From Leucoraja erinacea (lineage: Eukaryota), in assembly GCF_028641065.1 (NCBI RefSeq), contig NC_073393.1, positions 38,688,001 to 38,752,000 on the forward strand: a stretch of 64,000 nt of DNA, read 5' to 3'. A program made the position numbers and the translations under genes. The notes beneath the pieces are model-generated. The model was not told the origin of the DNA, did not search any database, and saw only the letters and a list, made by a program, of their open reading frames with translations. Below, piece after piece: positions 1 through 51,466 of the stretch. Position 1 is the stretch's first letter. Each line of letters starts with the position of its first letter.

Positions 1-69
1 AGTGATGTTGCCTGACCTGCCGAGTTACTCCAGCATTTTGTGGCTTTCCTTAATAAACCAGCATCAACA

Positions 70-960
70 CGTCCTTGTTCCTACAGCTTAACATCAGTAG
101 CAAGGAAGATACTGGAAACAATTCTGAAGCAGAGGATTAATGATCATTTTGAGAAGCAGGCACTGATCAGAGTCGGCAAATGTGGCCTTGTCAAGGGCAG
201 ATCATCTCAGATCAATTTGATTCAAATCTTTGAAGACAAAATATATCAATGAGGGCAGGACAGTAGATGCGATTTACGCTGACTTCAATAAGGCCCTTTG
301 ACAAGGTCCTAGATGGGATCCAGAGCAAGTTGGCAAACTGGAACCAAAATTGGTTTGGCAATAGGCAACAGAGGGTGATGTAGGAGGACTTTTTTTGTGA
401 ATGGATGTCTGTAACAAGTGGTGTCCCACAGGATCAGGATACCCAGTGAATGACTTCAACATGGATGCAGGAGGTATGATAATTTTGGAAATGACATGAA
501 AATTGGCAGGGTTGTGAATAGTATGATAGGTAGTCTTAGTCTGCAGATAGTAGTAGTGTTGAAATGGGCTGAAAAATAGCATTTTGTGAGAACTAATGAG
601 ATGAGGCTATACACCAAGAATGGTAGGGACTAATGGAGTATTGAGGAACAGAGGGGCCACAAGTACAAGTACAAGTCAACATCCTTTGTATTGGCAGCAC
701 ACAGCATGCTATAGGAAGGACATGACAGCATTAAAACAGTACAGAGTAGATTCACCAGGACATTGCATGGGATGGAGAATTGTGTTTATGACGAGAGACT
801 GGAGAAACTAGGTTTGTTCACCATGGATTGGGGGAGGTTAATAGATGGAGGCATATAACATTACGGGGTATAATAAATAAGGTAAACTACAGGAAACATT
901 TCTCCTCGAGGACATAGATTTTATGGAAGAGGATTCTCCAAAGACCAGTGGAGTCATTGA
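70..960 (+). mobile_element. Old CR1-like LINE fragment
   Basis: YSLTSVARKILETILK...GLVKGRS..INLI.IFE, followed by degenerate DFNKAFDKV and GVPQGS. Confidence 0.7.
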
Positions 961-2726
961 ATCAATAGGAGAGTCGGGGTTTATGGGAGTCTAGGGCTAT
1001 GAAGAATATAGAATCAGAAGAAGGGTCTCGACCCAAAACATCACCCATTCCTTCTCCCCAGAGATGTTGCCTGTCCCACTGAGTTACTCCTGCTTTTTCT
1101 TATTGTAGGATTTTCTGCTTCTCACTTGTCCTTGTAGCCTTAGTCACCAGCACAGTCAGTCATCTTATCCACTTCTGTAACCTACCTATACCTCTTTGCA
1201 AACTTTTTGCATCTTCTTTGCTGCTCAAATTCCCATCAATAAACAGAAAACTTTGTTGCACACTGCTTTTTAATCTAAATTATAACTACCTGAAATACTC
1301 TGTGTAATTTACTGCTAACTTGAGAAAAAAATTATTACAACTGTGCACTCTTATGCAAGCAAAATGGCCTTGGTGAAATGACTTGTCGAATGCCAAATAA
1401 GATATACTATATCAACTGTGAATGAAAACCAAAAACACTCAGCAGAATAAGAGCAAAGTGTACTGCTGATTAAGCATCATCGATGGTAGGAGAAACAATT
1501 GATACGTTACCCATTCCTGAGTGTCTCCAGCATTTTCTGTTTTTATGCAAATGTATTCACTTGCTCCTTTTAAAATACCCTGCCAGTTAATTCTCAAAAA
1601 TCCCCCAACATTAGTCAAAAGCAATTTTCTCTTCATAAAATGATACTGCCTCTGTTTGGTCAGAGTGTGACCAAAGATTTTTTTATTTAAAGCCTTGTTA
1701 CCAATGTCCTTAGTATTGGAGTCCAACATGTTGCCAACAATTGGTTAACAATTTAAAGATACAGCATGGAAACGGGCCAATGAGTCCACGTTGACCATTG
1801 ATCATCCAGTCACACAAGTTTTATGTTATCCCACTTTCGCATCCAATCCCTACACACAATGAGTAATTTACAGAAACTAACTAACTTGTAAGACCACATC
1901 TTTGGGATGTGGAAGGAAACCAGAGCACCCCAGTGAAATCCAACTGGTCACAGGGAAAAATTGCAAACCCCACACAGACATCATACAAGATCAGGATCAA
2001 AATATCTGTTAAGACAGTTTCACAAAACTGGAAGAAAACACTGTTACCAGTCGTCCAATTTTAGACACAAAGCTGGAGTAACGGGACATACAGCATCTCT
2101 GGAGAGAAGGAATGGGTGATGTTTTGGGTCGAGACCTATTTTCAGAGCAATTTTAGTTCCCTTATTTTCTCCACAACGATGTTAATGACAAGTGCCATTA
2201 AACCATCACTGACATGAATCCATTCACTTCTATTTTAACTCAGTTTACTGTATTTACATCTTCTGAGAAGTGGCCTTTGCTATTTCTAAAATAAGCACAA
2301 TATTTTTTTCCTTTTAGTTACATGCTTTCTGCCAGCTTCTATTTTAATGCATTTGCAAAATCGCGGTGTTTTTAAGTGAATTCTTGCTGGATGACCATAA
2401 CTTAAAACAGTTAACTCCCTCGTTAAATCTGTTCACCATGTGATATGCAGCCGTTTTTTTAAATAACAAAAATCAGACGGGATTAACAGCATTGCCCCGT
2501 CTACCCAACCGCCCAGAGAGTTGTGAATCTGTGGCATTCTCTGCCACAGAAGGCAGTGGAGGCCGATTCAAGATTCAAGAGAGTTTATTGTCATGTGTCC
2601 CAGACAGGACAATGAAATTCTTGCTTTGCTTCTGGGTGTATTCAATAGATAGTTAGATACAGCTCTTAGGGCTAACGGAATCAAGATATATGGGGAGAAA
2701 GCAGGAACGGGGTACTAATTTTGGAT

Positions 2727-2914
2727 TTTGTTGAGAAGGAATTGCAGATGCTTGAAAATCGAAGGTACCCAAAAAAGCTGGAGAAACTCAGCGGGCGCAG
2801 CAGCATCTATGGAGCGAAGGAAATAGGCAACGTTTCGGGACGAAACGTTGCCTATTTCCTTCGCTCCATAGATGCTGCTGCGCCCGCTGAGTTTCTCCAG
2901 CTTTTTTGTGTACC
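2727..2914. repeat. Fold-back Penelope terminal-repeat insertion with a 14-bp flanking duplication
   Basis: 75-bp arms at 2763-2837 and 2841-2915 with 1 mismatch. tactaattttggat at 2713-2726 and 2915-2928. Confidence 0.8.
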
Positions 2915-3000
2915 TACTAATTTTGGATGATCAGCCATGATCATATTGAATGGCGGTGCTGGCTCGAAGGGCCGAATCCTGCACCTATTTTCTATGCTTC

Positions 3001-3150
3001 TACCCTAACCCACCACTCCCCCTACCCTCCTTCACTCCCTCCTACCATACTCCACTCCCTCCTACCCTACTCCACTCCACTCCCTCCTACCCTACTTTAC
3101 TCCCTCCTACCCTACCGCCCCCTGCCCATCCACTCCGACCCCACCCCAGC
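3001..3150. repeat. C-rich low-complexity tract (CCTAC/CTCC units)
   Basis: Runs of cctcctaccctactccact directly visible. Confidence 0.8.
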
Positions 3151-3198
3151 CAACACAAAGCGCTGAGAGGATGAATGGGGTTTGCGCGCCGCTCCCAC

Positions 3199-3275
3199 CT
3201 CGTGGCCGAGACCGCCGCCGCCGCCGCTGCCTCGTACAGCGGCTCTCCCGGGTAGTCGTCCTCCACCTCACACAT
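3199..3275 (-). CDS. CTU2: CTU2 (cytosolic tRNA 2-thiolation protein 2) coding exon 1; the rest of the gene was not found and probably lies left of the window
   Basis: GCGCCATG start gives MCEVEDDYPGEPLYEAAAAAAVSAT(R), similar to the human N-terminus MCQVGEDYGEP. AG|GTGGGA donor at 3198. Head-to-head with RNF166 as in human. Confidence 0.8.
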
Positions 3276-3637
3276 GGCGCGGGTCCGCTCACCGGTCACC
3301 AGCGCCAGCCGATAAATCAATCGGAAGAAACCGATTAAATATTACTCCTTGCTAACACTTGATTATTATTATTATTTTTTTTTTGCAAGTGTCTTTCGTT
3401 AAAACCGCTGCGCTGTTCGCATTGAGCGGCCCCGTCCACCAGTGCCGCTCCTCTGCAGCGTGGCCGCGTCTGATAACAACACGGGTTTGACAAAGCAAAA
3501 TGTCGGCGTTTCCGTAGAAACAGGTTGGGTTCCAGGCCGTCGATGACGTCGGGTTGTTGTGGGCGACGCGGTGTGATGACGCGTAAGCCGCTCGGGTGTC
3601 GCGGGCTGATGATGACTGTTTAGGTTGTGGAAGGCAG
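3276..3637. promoter_or_regulatory. Bidirectional CpG-rich promoter and 5' UTR region shared by CTU2 and RNF166
   Basis: 362 bp between divergent ATGs, within a CpG-rich zone of about 3180-4100. CRE-like TGACGTC at 3544-3550 and TGACG at 3577-3581. Confidence 0.75.
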
Positions 3638-3783
3638 ATGATGGCGATGTTTCGGAGTTTCGTCTCCGGGAATCAGACAAAACAAGCGGCGGCATCGGGG
3701 GATAACTTGGCCGACACGTACAGCTGCCCGATCTGCCTGGAGGTGTACTACAAGCCGGTGTCAATAGCAAGCTGCGGACATGC
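3638..3783 (+). CDS. RNF166: RNF166 E3 ubiquitin ligase exon 1 (first half of RING); conserved Met at 3641
   Basis: MMAMFRSFVSGNQTKQAAASGDNLADTYSCPICLEVYYKPVSIASCGH matches human MAMFRSLV...CPICLEVYHRPVAIGSCGH. GC|GTGAGT donor, phase 2. Confidence 0.96.
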
Positions 3784-5104
3784 GTGAGTTGGTGACGGGG
3801 AGCCGTGTGTGTGTGTGTGTGGATCGGTAGACAAATAGTGGCGGTCTGGGGATGAGACAATGGCTGTGTGTGTGTGTGTGTGTGTGCAGCCGAGGGGAAG
3901 TTCACCTGTGTTTGCCAGCAGCGAGCCTTCAATGAGCCGGCGGGAGGAAGGTCATCTTGCCCCTCCACAGGAATTTGCGGTTTCCTGTCTTGCTTAAAAT
4001 GCGTTTTGTGGAGGATGTCGTGAAGTTCTTGTGAAGCTAATTCGATGGCGTCATCTTCACTGTGGGATCGGTGGTGCATGTTCGGATGCACGGCCAGACC
4101 ACACGGAGGCTTCTAACTGCTTGTTAGGTCAACACAGCGGTGCAATTAATGGCTTTTAGACACCTACTGCTTGATCCGAGACAGCGTTTTTATGGAAGAT
4201 TTGATATTTATTTTATTAATTTTAAAAAACATCACACCCTCTTGTTTTGTGGACGTGTTTAAAAACAAACGTGACCGTAATTTTGAAGTTCGTGGTGCTT
4301 ATAACAAGTGTTTCACATGAGCGCCAGTGCGTTTTTAATATGTAAATCCATTGTTGTTTCTTCTACCTTCCCATATATCTGATTATTGACAAACCTTGAT
4401 ACAAAATAACCATTGCTCGTCGTGCATTTATGAAAACCCGTTTAATTTAGCGACAAGCAGAAAATTATAAACAATACTACACCCGCGATTGGACATACCT
4501 GTAGTATGTCCAAAACCAACCAGAAATTGCTGGAAATCTGACTTTCTGTTAGTCTTGATCCCAATTAAGTATTGCTGATCATCTAGCAGATTTTAAGTTT
4601 CTAAATGGATCCTCACAGTTCTATGTCGTCCTGTCAGACTTAAATGGCGTGTATGAAATGCTCTGACGAACTGAGTTGACAGATCTTTCAATGGATACTG
4701 ATTTGAGCAGCTGAGGTCCAGGAATTAGTGGATTAAATTGGCAAAGAGTAGTATGAAATATTCTGTGACAATGAGTAACGAGAGGTAAAACAAATATGCA
4801 AAGGTGACACTTGGGAAAAGAAAGTGTGAATATCTTGTTCTAATTTGTTTATTATTAGGTATTGATTGCCTCAAAGGGAAAAAAAACTAATGCGTGATGA
4901 GATTACTTGTCATTATATATTGATTTTGCAATGTCTGCATTCCATTTTCATTGATTTCTCAACAGGATTTATCTGACAATAACAAAATCAGTTTTCTCTA
5001 TAGGTAATACAGTTATATAGGATTTCTCAATAAAATATGTACCCTCAATTGCTTCAATACATTTTATGAAATTAATTGTTTCTTACTATATATTCATATA
5101 TTGA

Positions 5105-5395
5105 CGCAGAGGTGTAACTGGTAGAGCAGCTGCCTCGGCGCCAGAGACCTGGGTTTGATCCTGATCTCCAGTGCGGAGTTGCCTGTGACTGGGTTTCCTT
5201 CAGGCACTCCAGTTTCCTCCCACACTCCAAAGACATGTGGGTGTGTAGGTTGATTGGCTTCTGTAAATTGCCCCTTGTGTGTAAGGAGTCGGTATAGAAA
5301 GTGGGATGACCAAGAACTAGTGCGAACGTCTGATCAATGGTCTGTGTGGATTTGATGTGCCAAAGGGCCTGTTTCCATGCTGTATCTTTAAACCA
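5105..5395 (+). mobile_element. Same SINE family, diverged
   Basis: Aligns to 12259-12577. Confidence 0.75.
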
Positions 5396-7361
5396 AGGAA
5401 TCTGTTTTCACTTTTTGCTTTTAATCATTTGAAGCAACATGTATTATTTTGAAATAATGTAGATTCTGTGTCTCCAGGATGTTTTAAGGGAAGTGCCCCT
5501 GACTGATAATGACAGAAACAACCATTATCAGTTCATGTTTAGGAAGGAACTGCAAATGCTGGTTTACACCGAAAATGGACACATAGTCATGAAGTGACTC
5601 AGCGGGACAAGCAGCATCTCTGGAGAAAAGAAATGGGTGATGTTCTGGTCAAGACTTTTCAGATGGTCTGAAGAAGGATCTGGACCCAAAACGTCACCAA
5701 TTCCTTTACTCCAGAGCTCCTACCTGACCTGACCCCGAGGTACACCAGCATTTTGTGTCTATCTTCATTATCAGTTGATAATGTATTTGTACGTGTGGTT
5801 AGCTGAGTTTTCATATCACACATGCTTTCATACAGGGCATTAAGAAAAATAAAGACTCAAGCACGGCAAAGTTCCTTCAGTGTTTTCAAGTTTTCTATTA
5901 CACTTAAGGTTTTCAACATTTAATTAGTATACTGAATTCCTCTAGCAAGCATACATTAATTATTCACAAGTACATATTTACAAATAAACACCAGGAATCC
6001 AAGGGATGTATTTTTATTTTACATTTTCAGAATAGTACTAATGAATACATATCGAACAGTTTACTGGCGTAATAAATATATTATGAAACGGAACTAGAAA
6101 ACACACAGTTTTAGCATTTGTATATAATGAAACAAGGTCAATTAATAATTGCATTGTGAAGGGCTCAGTAGGAAAATGGGAACATTTTACATGGATTTTG
6201 AGAGTGACACCTATTGCAAATAAGTAAATGCAAGAACACATGCAAATAGGAGCAGTATCACGCAGTTTGGCTTCTCAAACCTTCCCTGTCTCCATCCTAC
6301 CCCGCCATTCAATATGATCATGGCTGGTTTATCCCAGATCTTCCTCCTCTGTACCAGATGCAGATGGCGCTTAATTGCCCAATCTTTCTACAAAGAAATA
6401 ATTCATAATTATAAATGATGCATTCCATAACTTGGAGAATGAAATGGTGACTATCGTGGTAGCAATGGGAGTCGGCGAGCCTATTGTGAGTATTGGGTGT
6501 TAGCCTATTCCTGAAATGGAATTGAATGTTCCACAGTCATCTGTATACATTCCCAATTTCCGGGTTTACCATTCAAGGAAGGTAATTACTGACACAGCTG
6601 AAGATGAAAGTGCCAAGGACAATACCATGAGAAACTTCTGCAGTATGCCTTGGAGTTGAGATGATTGACCACTGACCACAACCTTCTTTCTTTGAATGGG
6701 ATATGACTTCAGCCATTAGAGAGAGTATTTAACCTTTGATGCCAATTTACTTCAGTTTTACCAGGGTTCTTGATGCCATGCTATCTTTGTATCAAGAGCA
6801 GTCATTCCTGCCTCCTCTCTGCAATTTGTTCTCCAATCCATGTTTGGATCAAATTGCGATAAGGCACTGAGTGGACCTAACAAAACTCACTGGCCATAGT
6901 CTGCAGGTCAATGGTGAGTATGTGCTACTTGGTAGTGTTGTCATCTTCGTCTTTTGTCGCAATGCCAATGAAACAGAGCAGACAATTTTGGGTGGTAATT
7001 AGACAGGTCCTGCTTTCTGTGAACAGGACGTGTTGCCAATTTTCCACATCAACAGATAGTTTTATTTACCATTGATGCAACAATACTGGAACAACTTGAC
7101 TAGAGAGGCAGCTGGTTCTGGAGCACAGCTCTTCAGTTCTACAGCTGGGATGGGTTTGTTTTTTTTTAGTTCTGCATTCTTTGCAGTATCCGTTACTGTT
7201 TCTTGACAACACATGGAATTAATTCAATTGGGTTCAGATTGGCTTTAATGTTGGGGATCTTAAACAGGATGTAGCGTCTGCTGGGCAGTTCTGGCTGAAT
7301 AAGGTTGCAGATGCTTCAGCCTTGTATTTAGCAGTGACTTGTTAGAACCAACTGCCCCCCC

Positions 7362-7394
<33 letters not shown>

Positions 7395-9699
7395 CCCCCC
7401 TCCCCACCCCAACCACACAAACATCAAGGCTGGAGATGTGTGCTACTTCTTCCCTGTAGCTGTTGAATTATGTACCGCCACTCGTGGCTGGATATGGTGG
7501 ACCTGTAGATCTTTAATAACAAATTAGTTGAATTGATACCATTTCAAACCATATAGCATATGTTGTGACTGCAGAGACAATAGGTGAAAGTGTGATATTT
7601 CCACAAGGTCATTCATATATTTGGCACTTAGTGCAACTTGTCAATAGAGTGAAGTAAGCAACTACGGAGAGGTTCCCTTCAGTGTTTCAGGTGAAGCTGC
7701 TGTTACCTTGCTGAATGGGTTAGATCATTATTCATTGTGCTGTAAACAGGCTCAGAGCCAGTTCATGGACTTTTATATCAGGGAGCATCAGTTTTCTGCA
7801 TCATTTGTTCCTGTACCCTAGAAATCAGGTTTAGTGATAGACTAAAAAGGTGATTCAGTTATAGCTGTGACATCTGTGATCCATATGAGAGTAAACAATG
7901 AGTCATGTGACATTCTTCCTGATCAGTGTTGATTCCCCAAGTCAGCAAGAGAGGGATATCTCTGGCCTGTGAGGTGGGCCAGTCTGGCACACATACATAG
8001 CAGGCCTTTCTTGTTAGTGAGACCTCTCCTCCTCCTCCTCTCTGCTAATGTTTCCTTTTGCTGAAAATTAAATTAGAATTGTGCCCTCGTCATAGCCACT
8101 CTGTCACTGATGTAACCAAGTGCAAGGTCACACTCTGTAGAATATTACAGGTGTACCCCCTAAAGTGTCTGGTCAGCATGGTCACAATTGGAGGAACTGG
8201 CGTGTAGTTAGGACTGTGGCTCTTTCCCAAAGATGTTGGCCTTCTTTCTCTCCATAATGATCCTCTGACCATTTCCTCTTGCTCCTAGCTGTGCTGAAGG
8301 CCTAGTAGGAAATGAGTAACAAGTACAGTTGAGCACTCTTTTAGCCTCTTTATTTAAGCCCTTTTAAGAATCATCTCTTTCTGACTCCAAAACAAAGCTA
8401 TAAGCAGTCTGAAGAAGGGTCTTGACCCATAACATCACCCATTCCTTCTATCCAGAAATGTTGTCTGTCCTGCTGAGTCACATCAGCATTTTAAGTGTAT
8501 CTGGTTTAAATCAGCATCTGCAGTTCCTTCCTACAACAAAGCTATTAGTAGACACAAAATGCTGGTGTGTAACGCAGCGGACAGGCAGCATCTGTCAACT
8601 CAGTAGCTCAGCGGGACAGGCAGCATCTCTGGATAAAGCTATTAGTAGTTTTAAATGGTAAAATGCTGTGCATGGTGCTTTGTTAAAGTACAGTTTTGTG
8701 TGAATGGCCGATGTTGTATTTTTGTTAATGAGGTTCATGTGGTAGCATCTTAGTTGAGAGGCTGTCAATGATTATTTGTAGGGATCTGTATTATCAAGAC
8801 ATACTCTGCATGCTGCTGTACATGCACGGAAGTGCCTGCACCATTTTCTCACTGCAAAGAATGCGCTGTGTTTGCACATTAACCAGATTATTCACTTGTG
8901 ATGCATATATGTTGTACAATGCAAGACAAAACTGAAAGGGAAAAGTTTTTTTTTCAAATGGTGACAGATTTGCAAATATTATATCGAAGAACATGGAGTA
9001 CTATTCATTATTTTGGCCTCTTTGCTTGAATAAGAATGAAAAACTGGCCCAAGAGACTGCAGTTGCTGTAGCCTGGTGCAAAATAGGAAAGCTGCTGGAG
9101 GAACGACGTGGGGCAAGCATCATTTGTGGAAGGCAGTGGACAGTCAATGCGTTGGGTCATCTATTTAGAGTGGTGAGAGCCCCTTGCAATATCAGCAGCT
9201 TGATGGATGGTGGGCACAGGAATGGTCTCTTCCCAAATTGTTGACCATCCATCTCTCTCCACCGATGTTGCCTGACCCGCTGTGTTCCCTTAACAGCTTT
9301 CTCTTTTTGACATTGAAAGGATGTTTGCTCGGGCTTCAGATATATCAAGGACTTACTCAGAGGGCCATCGGGTTATAGATGCTCAGCTTGTGCATATTTA
9401 TTCAAGATTGATTGGGATTTCTAGATTATTTGGATACTGGAACTAAGGATAATTAGGATCAGGTGCGAAAGTGGAGTTAAGGTAGAGTATCATGCATGAT
9501 TGATGGCAGAGCATATTTAAGGGATTATATAGCCTATATCTATTTGAATGATAATAAGAACACCTGGGTATCCAATTGCAAGCAGTAACAATCAAAATTG
9601 GGCAGGTAATAGTGTGAAGTGGTGTGTTAACCATGTACTGTGAGCAAAGAAAATAATAGGGGGACACAATATATATTTAGTTACGGCCAAGGGCGACCC

Positions 9700-9987
9700 A
9701 GTAGCCCAGGTGGCAGAACAGCTGTCTCACAGCGCAAGAGACCAAAATTGATCCTGACCTCAAGTGCTGTCTGTCTGGAGTTTGCACATTCTCCATTTGA
9801 CCACGTGGGTTTCCTCTGGGTTCTCAGTTTCCTCCCACATCGCAAAGACATGCTGGTTTGCAGGTTAATTGGACTCTGTAAATTGAACCTGATGGATGTA
9901 AAACATAGAACTAGTGTGAATGAGCAATCGATGGTCAGCATGGACTCACTGAGTCGAAGGGCTTGTTTCCATGCTGTATCTCTTAAG
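9700..9987 (+). mobile_element. Same SINE family, diverged
   Basis: Aligns to 12259-12577. Confidence 0.75.
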
Positions 9988-11269
9988 ATAAATTTTCCAC
10001 GTCATTTCAAAAAACATGGAACTGAATTATGTCTCCTACATCACCATGCAGGGCTAGAGTGACGTTATTAATTTGCTGTGCCTGTAAATGATAAACTGAA
10101 GGCACAAAAACTGCATATGATACGGCGTGCAGTATCTTCAGATTCGCTCTTTAAACACATGAGATTAGAACAATAATTTAACTTTGGCACCTAAATGATA
10201 TCCTAAAATGCTCATTGATCACAATGCAATACAAGAGAACGCAGGGAGAAGATTTTAAAATGTGGGAGTAAAGTAATTGTGTAAACTAATAAGCACTGTT
10301 TCACAAAGAACTGCTGATGCTAGTTTAAACTGAAGATAAAGCTGGAGTGACTCAGCGAGACAGGCAACATCTCTGGATAGAAGGAATTAGGTGACGTTTT
10401 GGGTCGAGACCCTTCTTTAGACTGAGAATCAGGGGAGAGGGGGACACAGATATATGGCTATAATAAAAAAAACAAGAACCAATAAGCACTGTTTGCCCTC
10501 ATGGCTGAGTACCCATAAATTGGAAGGAAAATCTGACCTGAGAAAATACAGTTGTGTATTCTCGCCCATTCTTGGGAAACAAAACAGGTTGAAAATCATA
10601 AAATACTTAACTCAAATGCCCTAAAATGCAATAATTTTATGAATATTTAATGAATAATTACCAGCACAAAAAATGATTAATATTACAGTTGTATGCTATA
10701 ATTTTATTGCTTGGCTGTCCTTGGCAACAAACCCCTTCAAAAACCTTTTTTTTGTGCCAGGGATATCATCTTCATGCATTTGCTGTATTTTAGTGACTCG
10801 TTAAAAAAAAAAACTGACGAGTTAATGCCTTGCCATCTATTGCAAAGTCATTTTTAATACACCCACATTTCACTTATCTAATATCACAAAAAGTAGATAA
10901 AATAATCTGTTTAGAGAAGGCTTTTCCCAGTATATGATTATGTCATCGCTGCAAAGAACCCAAGGGTGACAAATGTTGGTGAGAATCAAGGATAATTTTT
11001 TATCAGGTTGTTTCTCCTTTCATAAACAAAAAGTAAGTTTGACTCTTCTGTTGTACCTTTGTTCCAGGTATGTGTATGTATTATAGATCTTCTAAAATAA
11101 AACTATTCCCACAGAGCTTTTGGATAGGAGTCCCAGTGTATAGCCCTAGCAGAAATGAAGGACCTATGACATATTTCCATATCAGCGTGGTCTGCATATC
11201 TAGAGGGAATCGCATGCAGAATGCAGGATAGTTAGAACTAGGAAATTAATATCTCGCTTTATAGTGACA

Positions 11270-11565
11270 TCGGAAATTGGAGGAACAGCACCTCGTATTC
11301 CGCTTGGGGAGTCTGCATCCTGCGGGCATGAACATTGAATTCTCCCAATTTTGTTAGCCCTTGCTGTCTCCCTCCCTTCCTCAGCCCTTGGGCTGTCTCC
11401 TCCCATCCCTCGGCCCTCGGGCTCCTCCTCCTCCTTTTTCCTTTCTTCTCCCCGCCGCCCCCGATCAGTCTGAAGAAGGGTTTCGACCCGAAACGTTGCC
11501 TATTTCCTTCGCTGTATAGATGCTGCTGCACCCGCTGAGTTTCTCCAGCATTTTTGTGTACCTTC
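11270..11565 (+). mobile_element. 5'-truncated Penelope-like element with hammerhead motif
   Basis: RKLEEQHLVFRLGSLHPAGMNIEFSQFC-stop; hammerhead core at 11470-11497. Confidence 0.85.
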
Positions 11566-12258
11566 ATGCTTTATAGTGTCGGCAAGGAAGATAAGGAATT
11601 TTGTATGAAGAAGGATTGCCTTTGCTGAGATAAAATCATCTATTGATGAGAGAAAATATTATGAAGCTAGGCAGGCTTTGAGACTCGGGTAACACTGAGA
11701 AGTAAAGAGAATTAATAGCTCATGGAAATTAGTGTATATGCTCCCTGAAAGGGGCAGAGAAGAGATAGAATGTAACATTTCAGACAATGTTCTTGCACTT
11801 GACAAAAATAGTGGTAGCTAAATGGGGGGTTTAACATTTACATGGATAGGAATAAGTTTTTTGAGTGTGCAACATTTTTTCAGAACCAAGAAGAAGGCAG
11901 GCTACATTAGATCTAGAAATTGATAATGAACTATATTTATTGTGCTAATGATGTGTGAATACTTATCAAGTAGTTATCACGATGTGAGTGTGTTCATCGT
12001 AACTTTCATTTGAAAGAGAAATGTGATAAAGTTAGTGAGATTTCAGATATATGCAGAGTTGACTTCTTTGCAGTGTGGTAAAACTGTTACTGCTAAACTT
12101 AGAAGATCTGTTAATGGGTAAACAACATAAGCTAGGTGGGAGAAGTTCACAAAAACAATTTTAGTTTGATCCAGGATCAATTTATACCCTAAAGTTGATA
12201 AAAGCTCAATTTGCAAATAAAAACCACAAGTGACTGATGAAATAAAGGGCAGTACAAA

Positions 12259-12577
12259 GGGCGGTCACGGTGGCGCAGCGGTAGAGCTGCTGCCTTGCTG
12301 CGCCGGAGACCCGGGTTCGATCCCGACTACGGGTGCTGTCTGGGCGGAGTTTGTACGTACTCCCCGTGACTTGCGTGGGTTTTCTCAGAGATCTTCGGTT
12401 TCCTCCCACACTCCAAAAACCTACAGGTTTGTAGGTTAATTGGCTTGGTAAATGTAAAAATTGTCCCTGGTGGGTGTAGGATAGTATTCATTTGTGGGGA
12501 TCGCTGGTCGGCGCGGACACGGTGGGCCGAAGAGCCTGTTTCCGCACTGCATCTCTAAACTGAAACTAAAACTAAAA
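12259..12577 (+). mobile_element. Near full-length tRNA-derived SINE (HE1/V-SINE-like)
   Basis: A box TGGCGCAGCGG at 12271, B box GGTTCGATCC at 12314, central ggtttcctcccacactccaaa, CR1-type tail gggccgaag.gcctgtttcc..tctctaaact. Confidence 0.85.
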
Positions 12578-14202
12578 TAAATGGTAAATAAAATCAAAAA
12601 TGTCCATAGATCCTGGTGACTGGATTAATCAAGAGTCATACGGCACAGCCCAACTCCTCCATGTTAACCAAGATGCCCCATCTAAGCTAGTTACATTAGT
12701 CTGCACTTGGCCCTTTTCCCTCTAAACCATTCCTTCCATGTACTTGGACAGGTGTATTTTCAATGCTGTTATAGTATTTGCTTCAACTACCTCCTCTGAA
12801 CAGCTAATTCCATTTACCTACCAACCTCTGAGTGAAAAAGTTGCCCCTTGGGTTGCATTAAATCTCATCTCTCTCTCCTTAAAAACAAATGTGCTCTTGT
12901 TTTTGATTCCCTTATCCTGGATAAAAGTATCTGTGTGTTCACCCTATCGATTGCCCTCGTGATCTTATACACTTCTGTAAGATCAACCCTCAGCTTCCTG
13001 CATTCCAAGGAATAAAGTCCCAGTGTGCTCAACGTCCCCCTATAGCTAAGCCCCTCAGGTTCTGGCAACATCATCATGCACTGTGCAGGAAAGGGTGATA
13101 ACATGATACAAAGCATGAACATGAAAATAAACTTGGAAGTCAACACAAAATATATTCCTGATTAAATTAAGCAAAAGTTGGCCAGGAATATAGAGGGCCA
13201 AATGATGATATGGTAATTCAAAATATGGATATAATAGGCATACTGAATTATTGCATTTATATTATTAGACATGGGTGTCAGGAAAATAATGTTGGATCGG
13301 AGATGGTAGCATCAGAATTAAACTTTATTAAAACACAAAACAAAGTATGCGGAAGTGGCAGGTTGGAGCATCAGTTTGTGTTGCAAACTCACGCCTCTAG
13401 GGACTCAAGTTCAATGCTCGCATCAAATACTTTATAAGTGGGTTTGCACCTTCTCCTTGTAACTGTGGATTTCCCCACCTCAAAGATGTGCCAGTAGATT
13501 AACTAGCTGATATCAATTTCTCCTTAGTATTGGTAAGTTGATGGGATTCAGGGAATGAGACTGATAGCATTGTTGTATTGGGAGCTGGAATGGATCTGAT
13601 TTGGTTGAATGACCACCTTCATTATTGTAATAAGTAATGACACTGTGGAGCAACAACAGACCAGATGTTTCCATCTCTTGGTTATTAAAAAAAGTTAAGG
13701 ATTGTGCAGATATCCTGACCTTCCAAAATTTCCTTTAATTTGGAAGTGATTCTTTTGACTGGAAAATTATGCATATTACTTTGCTGCTTAGCAATATTTA
13801 GAATAAGAAGCCATGAAATCAAACATCATATTGTAAAATCATTTGTTTGGAGTTCAAGACAGAGTCACGAAACATCTTGAAACGATCTGAAAGAGCCAGG
13901 ATGGATTTGTAAACTGGGTCACCTGTGCCTGTTCAATCCGATTTCTTAAATAATATCTGAAGACATTCTCTGTGCACTATTCATTCAAAAAATAATCAAG
14001 GACCTTTCATTCAGCATTTAGTTAAGTCACTCATAAATGGCTATAATGTAAAATTATAACTCTCCCGAATTGACGAGAAAATATTGGCGTAGTTAAGAAA
14101 TTGGATGAACAGTACGACAGAGATTAGGGATAATGTACAATTCTCTCATTTGTTCAGAGTAATTATTGGTGCACCACGGGATCAGTGTTGGGTTCACAAC
14201 CG

Positions 14203-15055
14203 TCTATATACAACTAAAACTCTGATCTTGTGCTCTTCCGCTTTACACGGTTTTTCTATTTGCGCAAAAACGGTACGCGATAGCGCTACGATATTTCTCC
14301 AGGTTACTCAACGTTCTCCTGTGCTGCAAGTGCAACATGTATCGTTCAGAACGGTGGTATATTCTAAAAGTTATCAAGGTTTAAAAATCTTAAAAAACGC
14401 GCGTGCTCAGATTCCTTCATTCAGCGCCACGCAGATTGGTCTCTTCCGTCGGTCAATGCCACGGTCGGGATGGCGACGCACTTTCCATCCCCACTGGCAG
14501 CGGCCTGTCCCGCCTCACTCACAATCTCCTCTCTCCCCACCCCATAGTAACTTGTCTGTCGTCTTCCCCCACCACAGTCAGCGGCCGCAGGGAGGTGTGG
14601 TTCAGTAGAGGCCCTGGTCCAGTCTCTCCCTCTCCCCCGCCCACCCTCTGCGGCAATGGCAGTCCCGTCTACCTGCCGCCCAGGTCCGTCTCCACCGCCG
14701 CTGTGGTAACTCGCCCTCATGGCCTTCTCGGAGGACATCTTCTCCACCAGCTCATCAAAACTCGTGGAGAAGCCCACCGTGATGAACACCGACTTCAATT
14801 CCCCCCCCCCCGTTCCGCGGACCGGCAGCACCAGCGAGCAGGCGGGTGGGCAAGGCGGGGACGAGCCGAGCGGCAGCTGAACCAGAGGCAGCAGAGGGAG
14901 GGAGAGTCGGGTTGCAGGGTGGATGAGCAGTTTGTGTGCACACACACACACACACACAAATTGGTCCAATCGTCAAGTCAACGGGATCTAAACCACAGCT
15001 GACAATGAATTGCCTGTGGAGAAAGGAGCTGCAGATGCTGCTGTGACAGGTCTAG
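14203..15055 (+). mobile_element. Non-autonomous Helitron-like element with captured GC-rich sequence
   Basis: Starts TCTATATACAACTAAAACTCTGATCTTG and ends ggtCTAG|T. No TSD recognised. Shares 5' motifs with the element at 63508. Confidence 0.65.
14715..14798 (-). pseudogene. ALG13: Captured ALG13 exon-1-like fragment
   Basis: LKSVFITVGFSTSFDELVEKMSSEKAMR versus human ALG13 MKCVFVTVGTTSFDDLIACVSAPDSLQ. Followed by donor-like GCGAGT. Confidence 0.75.
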
Positions 15056-23931: not shown

Positions 23932-24226
23932 TATCGTCTTTATGAAATACTTAGGACAGGAGATTGAGAGCATAGTGTGTTCTTTCATGACGGAGGGACA
24001 CGATCAGAAAGAGCTTCAACTGAACTCCCGTAATTTTGTGCAGATTATACTGGTGGGCGGACTATCAGTTGCCTCAAAATCAGTGTTCAACCTGTATAGT
24101 AACCTGCTAATGGGGTGTTTTGTTAGATTTTGCTGAGCTGCAGAGTGAAATCTCTTTGTTAGCGATTGACGCTTTTGAATAAGCACCTTGTAAACTACTG
24201 GCTAACAATGATCCATTATCTTTCAG

Positions 24227-24383
24227 GTTCTGTGGGGAATGTTTGCAACCCTGCCTCCAAGTTGTGTCACCGTTGTGCCCACTTTGCCGCATGCCCTTTG
24301 ACCCCAAAAAGGTGGAAAAGGCCTCTAATGTGGAGAAACAGCTGTCGTCGTATAAGGCTCCATGTCGGGGATGCAATAAAAAG
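24227..24383 (+). CDS. RNF166: RNF166 exon 2 (157 bp)
   Basis: tttcag|G acceptor; FCGECLQPCLQVVSPLCPLCRMPFDPKKVEKASNVEKQLSSYKAPCRGCNKK; AAG|GTAATT donor. Confidence 0.97.
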
Positions 24384-24504
24384 GTAATTTAAAACAAAGC
24401 AAGTTCCTCCAAGTAAAAATTACGTTGTTTTAAAAATCTGAAAAAGTGGATTGTTAATCAATTTCAGTGCAGTTTACAGTTCTCATAGTCATATTTCTGT
24501 TACC

Positions 24505-47571: not shown

Positions 47572-48713
47572 GTAAGAACATCACTGTGATTTCTTTCACA
47601 TTGTTATTATTAGCTGTGCAAATAAACTGTATTTCTTTGACTTTTAAACATTTAGTTTGGAGTATAATGTACTTGTTCGCTTCTGTTGAGACAGAATGTT
47701 CTCATTAACTTTGTCAATTTCATGTAATTGCACTGCCTTGATATTGGCGCAGTGATGTGCGCGCTTTCCCCGTCACAATCGAAGAGTAAAAATTCTTCTA
47801 GGTAGAATCACTGAGTAAATAGTTTTCAGAGCGCGGTTTATTAGATAAAGGGCGATTCAGCAGGTGCATCGACTTGCATGCGGGTCCCCATTCTTATTCA
47901 CAGCATCGCCCTCCAGCACCAGGCTGGTATTCGTCTTAAATAAGCAACAAGCATGTTTGGGCTGCTTTCTGAAGTATTCTGTTTGCTGCACCCTACTAAA
48001 ACAAAAACCGCTTCACTGTAAAGCAAACTTCTTTCTTCAGAAGTCCCCCGTGTCGTTTATTTTTAGTGGCTTGTTTTCTGTTCCATACTAGACTTCCCAT
48101 TTTGGCTTGTGGGGACCACTCTGAGGTACGTTGGTCTCTTATTTTAAGTGAATCATTTCCTCTCGAATTTTTTTGCTAATTGCCCAGGGTTTTTACCTCA
48201 CAAAAGGGAAGGCAGCACAGCCTGGTTTTCGCATTGGGATAGATGAATTGCAAAGGGGAAGTGGTGGTGGTGGTGGTGGTGGAAGTGTGAATGACAAAGG
48301 GAGTTAACTGTTTGGTACAAAAATCAATGCATGCAAGCAACGAGTGGTGGATAGATCCATTCCTTTTGTAAAGATATTCGGGATTTGGATTCGGGATTTA
48401 AAGAGACTGACAAACAGCATTTGATTTGATCTTTCAATGGTCATCAATTTCCTCATGGGGAAAAGTGTTTAGTTTTAGCACAAAGAATTGTACTTCTGTA
48501 TTCTCTATTTTTACCTGTTAAAGAAGACTTTCACTACCATTCATTTAAAAATACTTCATTGCTGGGACTGGAAAACTTGTTTAAACACAATGATTAGGTG
48601 AAATAATATTATTTGATCTGGGTGTTAATTATGGGTAAGGCAATCCTTTTTCATGCTTCACCAGTTAGTATTTCTATCGACTTGCACGAGTTGAGACTCT
48701 GCTTTCTTTGCAG

Positions 48714-49352
48714 CCTCGGCTATTTTGCCATATCTATACGAGGGATTGACATTTCCACTGATGGCACCGCCTGAAGTTCTCGCCCCCATCAGTTGTGACC
48801 CACCAGCACTGTGGGACAGGGCTCCAATCAGTCTCCGAATGTGCCTGCCCCTGCCCCTGCCCCTGGATGCTGAGATTGGAACAGAAGCATCATTCAGCAG
48901 CCAGCCAGGCCTGCAGATCAGTGTGAAGGAATGCCTGGCTGTCAGGGACAGCAACACCCCACTAAGGAACACTGTGAATGACCTCAGCCTGTCCCTTTCC
49001 AAAAGAGCCAAGAGAAGGGAGACAAACAATGGCACATTTAAAGGAGACGGTGAAACCCAGGAGAAAACCCTTGAGGTTGAAAGTGCTGTTGAAGCAATCC
49101 TGGAGAGGTTTGAGTGTTTTCATTGTCACAAGGCATACAATACTTCATCTGGTCTTTCTAAACACAGACAGCTGCATTGTGAATCACAGACTACAAAATA
49201 TTTTAACTGCAAGTATTGTGATAAGGAATATGTCAGCCTGGGTGCATTGAAGATGCACATAAGGACTCACACTCTGCCCTGTGTCTGCAAAATCTGTGGC
49301 AAAGCCTTCTCGAGACCATGGCTCCTCCAGGGGCACATCAGAACACATACCG
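48714..49352 (+). CDS. SNAI3: SNAI3 exon 2 (639 bp; central region and zinc fingers 1-3)
   Basis: ttctttgcag| acceptor; ...[24 protein letters not shown]...[48 protein letters not shown]; G|GTAAGT donor. Confidence 0.94.
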
Positions 49353-50975
49353 GTAAGTACAAATAAAGCATTAGGGTCGGGGAAAGGGGTGAAAAACCAC
49401 CAAGTTCCCACTGCTTATTATTCAGTGACCTGCTGAAAAGTTCATCAATGAAAATGAGGATGAGAACAGGATGGAGGCGCAGCAGTGATGTCTTCTTTAC
49501 CACCGGCACTGCCGCTTGCCTCCCCTTGCGCTTGTATCCTTGCCTCAAAGCAACATTGCCCACAGCACTCACTGTGTGGCTCGTACATACAGTCTGACAA
49601 AGGGCTGCCCTGAAGGGAAACACTGGGGAGGCAAAAATGATTGGATATAAAGTACATGTTAATTAAATTAAATGTTATCTCTACACTTATTGTGCTGCAG
49701 GAATTTTGCATTAACACCATCAGGGTTTCCAATTTAATAAAAAAAGACTATTAAAGTGTAGATTTAACCTTTTGCATAAGGGAAAACAAAATGTAACCTT
49801 TTTCATTTGTGTAAGTAGGAACTGAAGATCCTGGTTTAAACCAAAGATACTAGAGGATGTAGTATCTCCTCTGGTATCTTTGGTTTAAACCAAAGATAGA
49901 CACAAAAAGCTGGAGTAACTCCGTGGGACAGGCAGCATATCTGGAGAGAAGGAATGAGTGACGTTTCATGTTGAGACGGGTCAGGTCTGAAGAAGAGTCT
50001 CGACCCGAAATGTCACACATTCCTTCTCTCCAGAGATGCTGCCTGTCCCGCTGAGTTACTCCAGATTTTTAGTGTCTGTCTTTTTATTTCAACAAAATAG
50101 TCCTTTCCTAAGACGGACTCAGAAATATATCGGTGTACTTCAATGCTACATGATATTACTCTGCTGGAACCATAATATGTTTGAAGCAATGGGCATTGCG
50201 GTTATGTTCCTCTATCATTCTGCTATGAAATCTCCAAGTTCCCCACATGGATTACCATTATCCAGCTGTGAATCGCCATGTAGGATAGATAGCAAACACC
50301 TCATTTACGTAATACAGTTCGTAGCAAAAGCTGCAATTGTGATTTGCTGAAAATTAAGTGAATCTTAATTTGAGTTTTTGTTTTGTTTTTAACTATTTCG
50401 ATGACCTTTGAAGTTGCCCAAAGTACTGCTTGCTGGCAGACCAGCACAGAACTCTCATGTCATGCTATTTGCAAAGCAGGTCCAATAGCCAACATACCTG
50501 CTGTAAGGATTGCTGGAGACATCTGGCTAAATTCTGAAGATGGAGCTCCAATATTATTAATGCCTGACTGGTGATAGAAAATGCTCTAGATACAGTAGAA
50601 CACTGACATTTTCTCTGGATTGAATTTAATTGAATGTCCATGCATATGGAATTCAATTAGGATTTCAAAATATTTGCCACTCAAAAGCAAATGGCTTTAT
50701 AAAGTGCATGATATAGTATACAGTTTATAGTGGTGTTTTAGCAAATTATTTCACAGGTTTTATTATAGTTTGTTTATTTACGTATTTGTTAAACATAACA
50801 GGGGATTGGGCTTTCACCAATGGTGTACTGTGGGATGGGGTATGGTTATTTTTCTGAGTCAAAAGAAAATCAATGTTGTGATGTCCATATCCTGGTTTCT
50901 TTTTAAATGGTACATCCTTCTTGCTAAGGGTGATGTGAAACATTCCTCCCTGATTTATATTTTTGCCCTTTACAG

Positions 50976-51157
50976 GGGAGAAGCCGTTTGCCTGTCCACA
51001 CTGCAGCAGGGCTTTTGCAGATCGCTCAAACCTGCGTGCACATCTGCAGACACACTCGGATGTGAAGAGATATCATTGCAAGAGCTGCTCAAAGACTTTC
51101 TCCAGAATGTCTCTTCTATCCAAACACAAGGAAGCCGGATGCTGCCCCTTATCTTGA
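50976..51157 (+). CDS. SNAI3: SNAI3 exon 3 (zinc fingers 4-5 and stop)
   Basis: tttacag| acceptor; [63 protein letters not shown]. Total CDS is 897 nt. Confidence 0.95.
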
Positions 51158-51466
51158 TGCAAACTCTGTGATATTATTAAATTCTGATTTGATAGCAGGC
51201 TGGAGTTTTGCAAAGTGTTGAGGGCCTATTATTTTAGCATTATATCATTGAACATGGTTGCGAAATGCTGTACTTGTTGGTTTGTTAACTCTCAAAATAA
51301 TTTCACCCTAATGGAGACCTGCAGATGTAATCGGCTAAAGCTCTACCAATGTTGACTCTACTAGTTATGACATAAAACCATTTTGTCCATGGAACATAGA
51401 GTGGTACTACTGCACAAGAAGAGGCCCTTTGGCCCACACTGCCTGTGCTGAACATGCTGCCAAGAC

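What the first reader, a model, noticed from the sequence alone, without database searches (positions are those of the whole stretch)
14203..15055. Helitron-like element carrying a genomic (unspliced) copy of ALG13 exon 1
Seen: inside a TC...CTAG|T bounded element, the minus strand at 14798-14715 reads LKSVFITVGFSTSFDELVEKMSSEKAMR. It is followed immediately by GCGAGT, one base from a GTGAGT donor, and sits in GC/CpG-rich sequence. Known (from memory): the ALG13 N-terminus is MKCVFVTVGTTSFDDLI..., and human coding exon 1 ends at about codon 27. Helitrons capture host gene fragments at the DNA level. Inference: similarity stops where the intron should start, so this looks like DNA capture of the ALG13 first exon and CpG island rather than a retrocopy. 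It may be amplified genome-wide as a gene-fragment-carrying Helitron family in a cartilaginous fish. It is antisense to the RNF166 pre-mRNA, so intron 1 transcription makes ALG13-antisense RNA.
Basis: partly seen in the sequence, partly recalled or inferred. Interest (0 to 1): 0.8.

Follow-up and report, generated by a model that had tools for sequence, protein, structure and literature searches.

The report
Skate Helitron carrying ALG13 first exon
A rolling-circle jumping gene in a skate genome once picked up the front end of the housekeeping gene ALG13 and copied it to a few hundred places, as is known from bats, and this is one old, decayed copy.

Summary
Confirmed, and more ordinary than first scored. 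Window 14203-15055 is a decayed copy of a non-autonomous Helitron family of roughly 300-500 copies. The true ALG13 gene lies on C12. The element carries one unspliced block of it, antisense: 368 bp upstream of the ATG, all 81 nt of exon 1 and 194 bp of intron 1, no exon 2. The family consensus matches donor exon 1 at 78 of 81 nt, with ATG and GT intact. Fuller copies show A|TC, a terminal hairpin, CTAG|T and no target duplication. A broken Rep-PIF1 Helitron shares both ends. A cargo-free sister family shares both flanks of the cargo, with a 17-of-21 match at one junction, favouring internal filler-DNA capture. Copies decay neutrally and lose CpGs; the donor keeps them. The window copy lost ATG, GT and hairpin, and shows no RNA of its own. 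It parallels bat HelibatN3/NUBPL. I found no report of it in cartilaginous fish.

The parts
14203..15055 (+). Whole element: internally deleted copy of a non-autonomous Helitron family carrying an ALG13 5' fragment
   Evidence: 19 of 19 other loci align from 14200-14256 onward and 15 of 19 to 15042; ends
14203..14496 (+). Helitron 5' leader (begins TC), shared with a Rep-PIF1-encoding Helitron and with a cargo-free sister family
   Evidence: Consensus 1-265 matches the C20 element at 86%; 23 of 25 cargo-free loci match this part; coordinates mapped
14497..14714 (-). Captured first ~190 bp of ALG13 intron 1, with the splice donor decayed from GT to GC at 14714-14713
   Evidence: Aligns to donor C12:5687136-5687329; left edge approximate (about 5 bp)
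14715..14798 (-). Captured ALG13 coding exon 1; in this copy no ATG, one extra codon, 6 of 81 aligned bases changed from consensus
   Evidence: Donor exon C12:5687055-5687135; 20 of 28 residues identical
14799..15042 (-). Captured sequence upstream of the ALG13 ATG (5' UTR and presumed promoter, a CA repeat, and the tail of a common repeat that borders the donor island)
   Evidence: Aligns to donor C12:5686687-5687054; that it holds the promoter is inferred, the start site was not mapped
15043..15055 (+). Remnant of the Helitron 3' end: two short pieces of the terminus joined across deletions, ending CTAG before T; hairpin lost
   Evidence: Compared with full ends; this junction occurs once in the genome; fold
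3641..3784 (+). Host gene exon 1 (first half of a RING finger; RNF166 by recall); the element lies in the intron after it
24225..24389 (+). Host gene next exon (second half of the RING finger); boundaries approximate

Best explanation
An old non-autonomous Helitron acquired a 643-bp piece of the ALG13 CpG island (upstream sequence, exon 1, start of intron 1) as genomic DNA, in reverse orientation, in the middle of the element (shown). It most likely did so by a template switch or break repair primed on a short GC-rich match, replacing the parent's own middle (inferred). The product kept the 5' TC end and the hairpin-CTAG end and was copied to about 300-500 sites (shown) by the Rep-helicase of a related autonomous Helitron, now broken (partner shown by shared ends; its action inferred). 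The copies were then methylated and decayed neutrally (inferred from CpG loss and equal change at the three codon positions). The window copy is one dead insertion in a RING-gene intron and has no function.
For: Donor: exons 1, 2 and 3 on C12 hit PF04101 positions 2-22, 32-79 and 81-120 in order, and exon 2 is 100% identical to a protein that NCBI names ALG13, whose first 27 residues are donor exon 1. Consensus of 20 copies matches donor exon 1 at 78 of 81 nt and keeps ATG and GTGAGT. Copy number: 40 of 40 scored of 529 candidates matched; 188 places match a 23-nt exon motif with at most one mismatch, control 0. Ends: 22 of 30 with the 5' end, 12 of 30 with the 3' end, 8 of 30 with both; base before TC is A in 13 of 15, base after the end is T in 14 of 15, and 6 of 6 complete copies share only 0-2 flank bases. 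Partner: C20:31202748-31208730 shares 265 bp (86%) and 106 of the last 109 bp queried (85%), and holds Helitron_like_N and PIF1 matches. Internal capture: 0 of 25 sister loci match the cargo, 23 of 25 match the 5' leader, 13 of 25 hold the purine block that follows the cargo; parent and donor match at 17 of 21 bases at the left junction, reached at 2 of 1678 donor positions. Neutral decay: non-CpG change 4.6, 4.5 and 4.1% at codon positions 1-3; CpG-type change at 957 of 2844 sites in 47 copies, 20 of 70 in the window, 5 of 42 in the donor.
Against: No empty site was seen, so this copy's borders rest on alignment. The window copy has G, not A, before TC and no hairpin. 4 of 30 exon-picked copies show neither end within 1.5 kb. 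The junction match was picked after the fact in GC-rich DNA, and the right junction shares only 3 bases. Exon change in copies (4.4% non-CpG) is lower than in the flanks (6.9-7.3%); I put this down to how copies were selected and to subfamily variation, but did not test it.
Confidence: 0.85

Rival explanations
1. Same family, but captured by 3' end bypass: a Helitron without its terminator sat in ALG13 intron 1 on the opposite strand, read through exon 1 and the upstream region, and gained its present 3' part from a second Helitron in a later step.
For: Read-through past a missing hairpin is shown experimentally for Helraiser (PMC4778049, passages). The cargo follows the 5' leader in the order read-through would give. 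The C20 and C6 autonomous elements hold an internal terminator-like motif just before the Rep frame, a sign that ends are bypassed in this group.
Against: Both flanks of the cargo are found, in order, in one cargo-free sister family. No terminator remnant lies between leader and cargo. The window element's Helitron leader matches nothing at the donor island, only a sister element 41 kb away.
Confidence: 0.2
2. The family is a source of working promoters and first exons: some copies drive ALG13-promoter transcripts that splice into downstream host exons, as bat HelibatN3 does.
For: 25 of 44 covered copies keep both ATG and GT. The whole stretch between the upstream repeat and the ATG was taken. 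Precedent: three bat transcripts start in NUBPL-derived insertions (PMC4778049, passages).
Against: CpG loss in copies (34%) points to methylation, and codon positions change equally. No site where many RNA molecules begin was found on the window copy, and bulk RNA depth over its cargo was 0. Only this one copy was tested with RNA.
Confidence: 0.25
3. The window copy regulates ALG13 by antisense RNA made during transcription of the host intron.
For: Orientation is antisense. Single-cell reads lie on the + strand at depth 0.55-0.68 over the cargo, like 0-1.68 in the unique intron beside it.
Against: 73-74% identity to the donor with indels; depth no higher than ordinary intron; 0 in bulk poly(A) RNA; decay like any other copy.
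Confidence: 0.03
4. A processed ALG13 retrocopy, or a chance peptide match.
For: The peptide alone gave no Pfam or PDB hit.
Against: DNA match runs into intron 1 and upstream sequence, and the window query has no hit at exon 2. Consensus is 78 of 81 nt identical to donor exon 1.
Confidence: 0.01

Closest known systems
HelibatN3 of Myotis bats (NUBPL capture); PMC4224331 and PMC4778049, passages seen
   Same: Non-autonomous Helitron that amplified the promoter, 5' UTR, first exon and part of intron 1 of a single-copy gene to high copy number.
   Different: Different gene and lineage. Here about 300-500 copies against about a thousand. Promoter activity is shown for HelibatN3 and not shown here.
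Heli1Xen1 of Xenopus laevis; PMC12001565, passages seen
   Same: Vertebrate Helitron with captured coding fragments, 17 of 19 from gene 5' ends.
   Different: There 19 fragments over 64 insertions (at most 17 copies named for one); here one capture reached hundreds of copies and is old (9% from consensus).
Filler-DNA acquisition in insect Hel1 Helitrons; PMC6544945, passages seen
   Same: Host DNA internal to the element, with a shorter related element present and short junction matches.
   Different: There the captured pieces are short (about 70-100 bp source ranges); here a 643-bp promoter-exon-intron block with a named donor gene.

Membership tests
Helitron (canonical, non-autonomous) | 5' end begins TC | tested here: met
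   Window 14203 and aligned copies
Helitron (canonical, non-autonomous) | 3' end CTRR | tested here: met
   Window 15052-15055; 10 of 15 extended copies end CTAG before T
Helitron (canonical, non-autonomous) | Short hairpin about 11 nt before the 3' end (family) | tested here: met
   7-bp stem, 3-nt loop, 11 nt from the end, -7.5 kcal/mol in copy L010; 3163 exact matches of the 28-nt end, control 0
Helitron (canonical, non-autonomous) | Hairpin and A|T site in the window copy itself | tested here: not met
   Hairpin deleted and 5' flank base is G; the shortened end is unique to this copy, so it is a damaged member
Helitron (canonical, non-autonomous) | Insertion between A and T (family) | tested here: met
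   A before TC in 13 of 15, T after the end in 14 of 15, of 47 copies examined; T in 30 of 30 related ends
Helitron (canonical, non-autonomous) | No target-site duplication | tested here: met
   0-2 shared flank bases in 6 of 6 copies with both strict ends
Helitron (canonical, non-autonomous) | Autonomous Rep-PIF1 partner with the same ends | tested here: met
   C20 element, broken by stops, shares both ends and holds PF14214 and PF05970 matches; of 8 Rep loci examined, the long-frame ones (C38, C600, C29) did not share the 5' end
Helitron (canonical, non-autonomous) | Empty orthologous site | tested here: inconclusive
   None among the 15 joints shown of more than 2800; a contig of organism E runs 28 bases into the element, suggesting the site is filled there too
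Helitron (canonical, non-autonomous) | Rolling-circle movement by the transposase | not testable with these tools
   Needs a transposition assay
DNA-level gene-fragment capture (HelibatN3 type) | Contiguous upstream, exon and intron sequence of an identified single-copy donor, no spliced junction | tested here: met
DNA-level gene-fragment capture (HelibatN3 type) | Captured promoter drives chimeric transcripts | tested here: inconclusive
   None seen for the window copy in 2 RNA runs read at about 5% and 1%; other copies not tested

The most novel reading that the evidence does not exclude
Skate Helitrons, like bat ones, took CpG-island gene starts more than once and spread them as ready-made promoter, ATG and splice-donor cassettes. 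Some of the hundreds of ALG13 copies (25 of 44 keep ATG and GT) now serve as alternative first exons of skate genes, and sister families such as the one at C12:5644931-5645905 carry other captured gene starts.
Probability: 0.25. Interest if true: 0.65.

Novelty: new member of a known kind. Interest (0 to 1): 0.42.

Why it matters
It adds a cartilaginous fish to bats and Xenopus as a vertebrate lineage where Helitrons took a gene's 5' end, which supports a general bias toward CpG-island starts. Donor gene, cargo-free parent family, broken autonomous partner and both junctions all sit in one genome, so the case can help decide between filler-DNA and read-through capture. It also shows an essential gene keeping its CpG island while hundreds of copies of it lost theirs. 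In practice, the copies will confuse read mapping and annotation at ALG13 exon 1. The window copy itself matters little.

Tried and rejected
Pfam and PDB searches with the window peptide found nothing; a PDB search with donor exon 1 also found nothing, and its Pfam match is weak (E 0.087). One search was aimed at the wrong stretch of L075 and told nothing; one search repeated it on the right stretch. The junction test used a window that was not found and is void; one search is the valid run. One search scanned 22 of 90 window frames and missed the short RING exons, later found. No RNA holder was listed for the stretch, which is no evidence on expression. Minus-strand single-cell reads over the cargo (depth 3.1 and 7.5) were rejected as evidence: 10 of 10 reads at 14736 carry the family and donor base, not the window's, and other repeats nearby show similar strand bias. 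The idea that the C12 exon is just another Helitron copy was rejected: no Helitron ends flank it, and it continues in frame into exons 2 and 3. The idea that most elements with this 3' end carry ALG13 was rejected: 0 of 30 do within 1.5 kb. The donor of the sister family's cargo was not found: 25 of 25 loci examined were Helitron copies. Three look-ups of earlier scan findings returned nothing. Paper searches: helitron+ALG13, helitron+Leucoraja and helitron+elasmobranch+transposable element+captured each gave 0 papers; listings showed no paper on chondrichthyan Helitrons. Repeat libraries (Repbase, Dfam) and subscription journals were not searchable, and no supplements were read, so the family may already be catalogued.

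Full report
Observation. The peptide, the GCGAGT after it, the TC start at 14203 and the CTAG end at 15055 are all present. The stretch is 61-64% GC with raised CpG. The peptide alone found no Pfam or PDB match, so I looked for the donor in the same genome.

The donor. A PF04101 search of the genome gave 18 matches, one of them a short exon at C12:5692826. In 70 kb around it, the window peptide matched at E 3e-13, and the window DNA matched C12:5687315-5686948 (74%) and 5686898-5686715 (73%). There, an 81-nt exon begins with ATG at 5687055 and ends before GTGAGT; exon 2 (5690618-5690780) and exon 3 follow in frame. The three exons hit PF04101 positions 2-22 (weak, E 0.087), 32-79 and 81-120. 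Exon 2 is 100% identical to P0001, which NCBI names ALG13 of 'Leucoraja e...' (name cut in the output), on a contig as long as C12; its first 27 residues are this exon 1, and seven of eight other shark and ray proteins returned carry the same motif. No Helitron end flanks the donor exon. The captured block is about C12:5686687-5687329: 368 bp upstream of the ATG, exon 1 and 194 bp of intron 1. The window query has no hit at exon 2. This is DNA capture, not a retrocopy.

The family. A search with 14600-14930 gave 529 candidates, and 40 of 40 scored matched. A 23-nt exon motif matches 188 places with at most one mismatch, 81 of them exact, control 0. The ratio of exact to one-mismatch hits gives about 290 copies by my arithmetic, a low estimate because it ignores indels; I therefore say 300-500. 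The consensus of 20 copies has an intact 81-nt exon, 78 of 81 identical to the donor, with ATG and GTGAGT. Of 30 copies picked on the exon motif alone, 22 have the 5' end, 12 the 3' end, 8 both and 4 neither within 1.5 kb. In 47 copies, strict end patterns were found 15 times each: A precedes TC in 13 of 15, T follows the end in 14 of 15, and 6 of 6 complete copies share only 0-2 flank bases. The end is a 7-bp hairpin 11 nt before the last base of CTAG. This 28-nt end occurs exactly 3163 times, control 0, but 0 of the first 30 such places carry ALG13 within 1.5 kb, so the ALG13 family is a small part of a large Helitron group.

Partner and parent. Helitron_like_N matches 78 places. Of 8 that I extended, a 6.0-kb element at C20:31202748-31208730, between A and T, shares the first 265 bp (86%) and the 3' end (85%) and holds PIF1 helicase pieces; its frame is broken. 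The elements with long open frames (C38, C600, C29) do not share the 5' end. A cargo-free sister family exists: of 25 loci, 23 match the 5' leader, none matches the cargo, and 13 hold the purine-rich block that follows the cargo in the ALG13 family.

Mechanism. The cargo sits between two parts of one parent and replaces its middle (shown by alignment). At the left junction parent and donor agree at 17 of 21 bases with one gap; 2 of 1678 donor positions and 1 of 291 parent positions score as well. This test was chosen after seeing the alignment and the DNA is GC-rich, so it is modest support. The right junction shares 3 bases. This is what the filler-DNA model predicts (PMC6544945, passages). 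Read-through past a lost hairpin is the proven route for Helraiser (PMC4778049, passages) and remains possible in two steps. I put the capture route at about 70% filler-DNA, 20% read-through, 10% other.

Fate. Copies differ from consensus by about 9% (7% outside CpG). Non-CpG change at codon positions 1, 2 and 3 is 48 of 1047, 49 of 1100 and 38 of 917, with no sign of selection on the peptide. CpG-type change affects 957 of 2844 sites in copies, 20 of 70 in the window and 5 of 42 in the donor, against 639 of 15700 for other C and G: copies were methylated and the donor island largely was not (inference). Exon change in copies is lower than in the flanks (4.4% against 6.9-7.3%), which I did not resolve. 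25 of 44 covered copies keep both ATG and GT.

The window copy. It has lost the ATG, has GC for GT, has one extra codon, and lacks the purine block and hairpin. Its shortened end occurs once in the genome, so it left no daughters. It lies in the first intron of a + strand RING gene (exons at 3641-3784 and about 24225; RNF166 by recall), so the cargo is antisense. A contig of organism E covers 13082-14230 with 64 differences and enters the element by 28 bases, short of the 31 needed to count as bridging; it suggests the insertion predates that split. No empty site was among the 15 joints shown. Bulk poly(A) RNA, read at about 5%, had depth 0 over 14463-14915. Single-cell RNA, read at about 1%, had + strand depth 0.55-0.68 there, like the unique intron beside it; its minus-strand reads carry the family base (10 of 10 at 14736) and come from elsewhere. 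No place where many molecules begin was found.

Comparison with what is known. [quoted passage not shown] Xenopus Heli1Xen1 shows the same bias, 17 of 19 fragments (PMC12001565, passages). I read search passages only, no supplements. Searches for Helitron with ALG13, with Leucoraja, and with elasmobranch plus capture gave 0 papers each; repeat libraries could not be searched.

Verdict. A real and well-supported case, a new member of a known kind. The family meets the Helitron tests I could run; the window copy is a damaged member with no sign of function. Interest 0.42. It would rise to about 0.65 if copies prove to act as first exons or if sister families carry other captured gene starts.

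Noticed in passing
L036:1926-2910 (G000 C12:5644931-5645905, minus strand): Sister Helitron family with related ends and a different GC-rich interior ending in a splice-donor-like site; 540 candidates, 40 of 40 scored matched. It may be another captured gene start or the Helitron's own leader exon; no donor found.
   Followed up: partly
L109-L110 (G000 C20:31202748-31208730) and L115 (C6, about 76536590 onward): Autonomous-type Helitrons have an internal copy of the terminator hairpin, without CTAG, just before the Rep start codon, so their 5' leader looks like a whole non-autonomous element.
   Followed up: partly
L098, L096, L097, L094 (G000 C38:11403190, C600, C779, C1290): Helitron Rep frames open for 1479-1739 codons, and C38 and C600 copies 97.6% identical over 8 kb: a young, possibly still active Helitron family.
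   Followed up: no
L063-L092 (G000 C1): Elements sharing the 3' end fall into many subfamilies; several hold TATA-like, GGAAG and CAAGATGG motifs followed by a splice-donor-like site. Native or captured is not known; motif meanings are recalled.
   Followed up: no
L034:3850-4010 and 4350-4890 (ALG13 donor): The donor's upstream region and intron 1 hold GC-rich tandem repeats; three copies (L012, L015, L017) keep more of the upstream repeat than the consensus does.
   Followed up: no
window 3200-3280 (minus) and 48695-51200 (plus): A second gene starts head-to-head with the RING gene in the CpG island at about 3277, and Snail-type zinc-finger exons lie at 48.7-51.2 kb; CTU2 and SNAI3 by recall of the human neighbourhood, not searched.
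   Followed up: no
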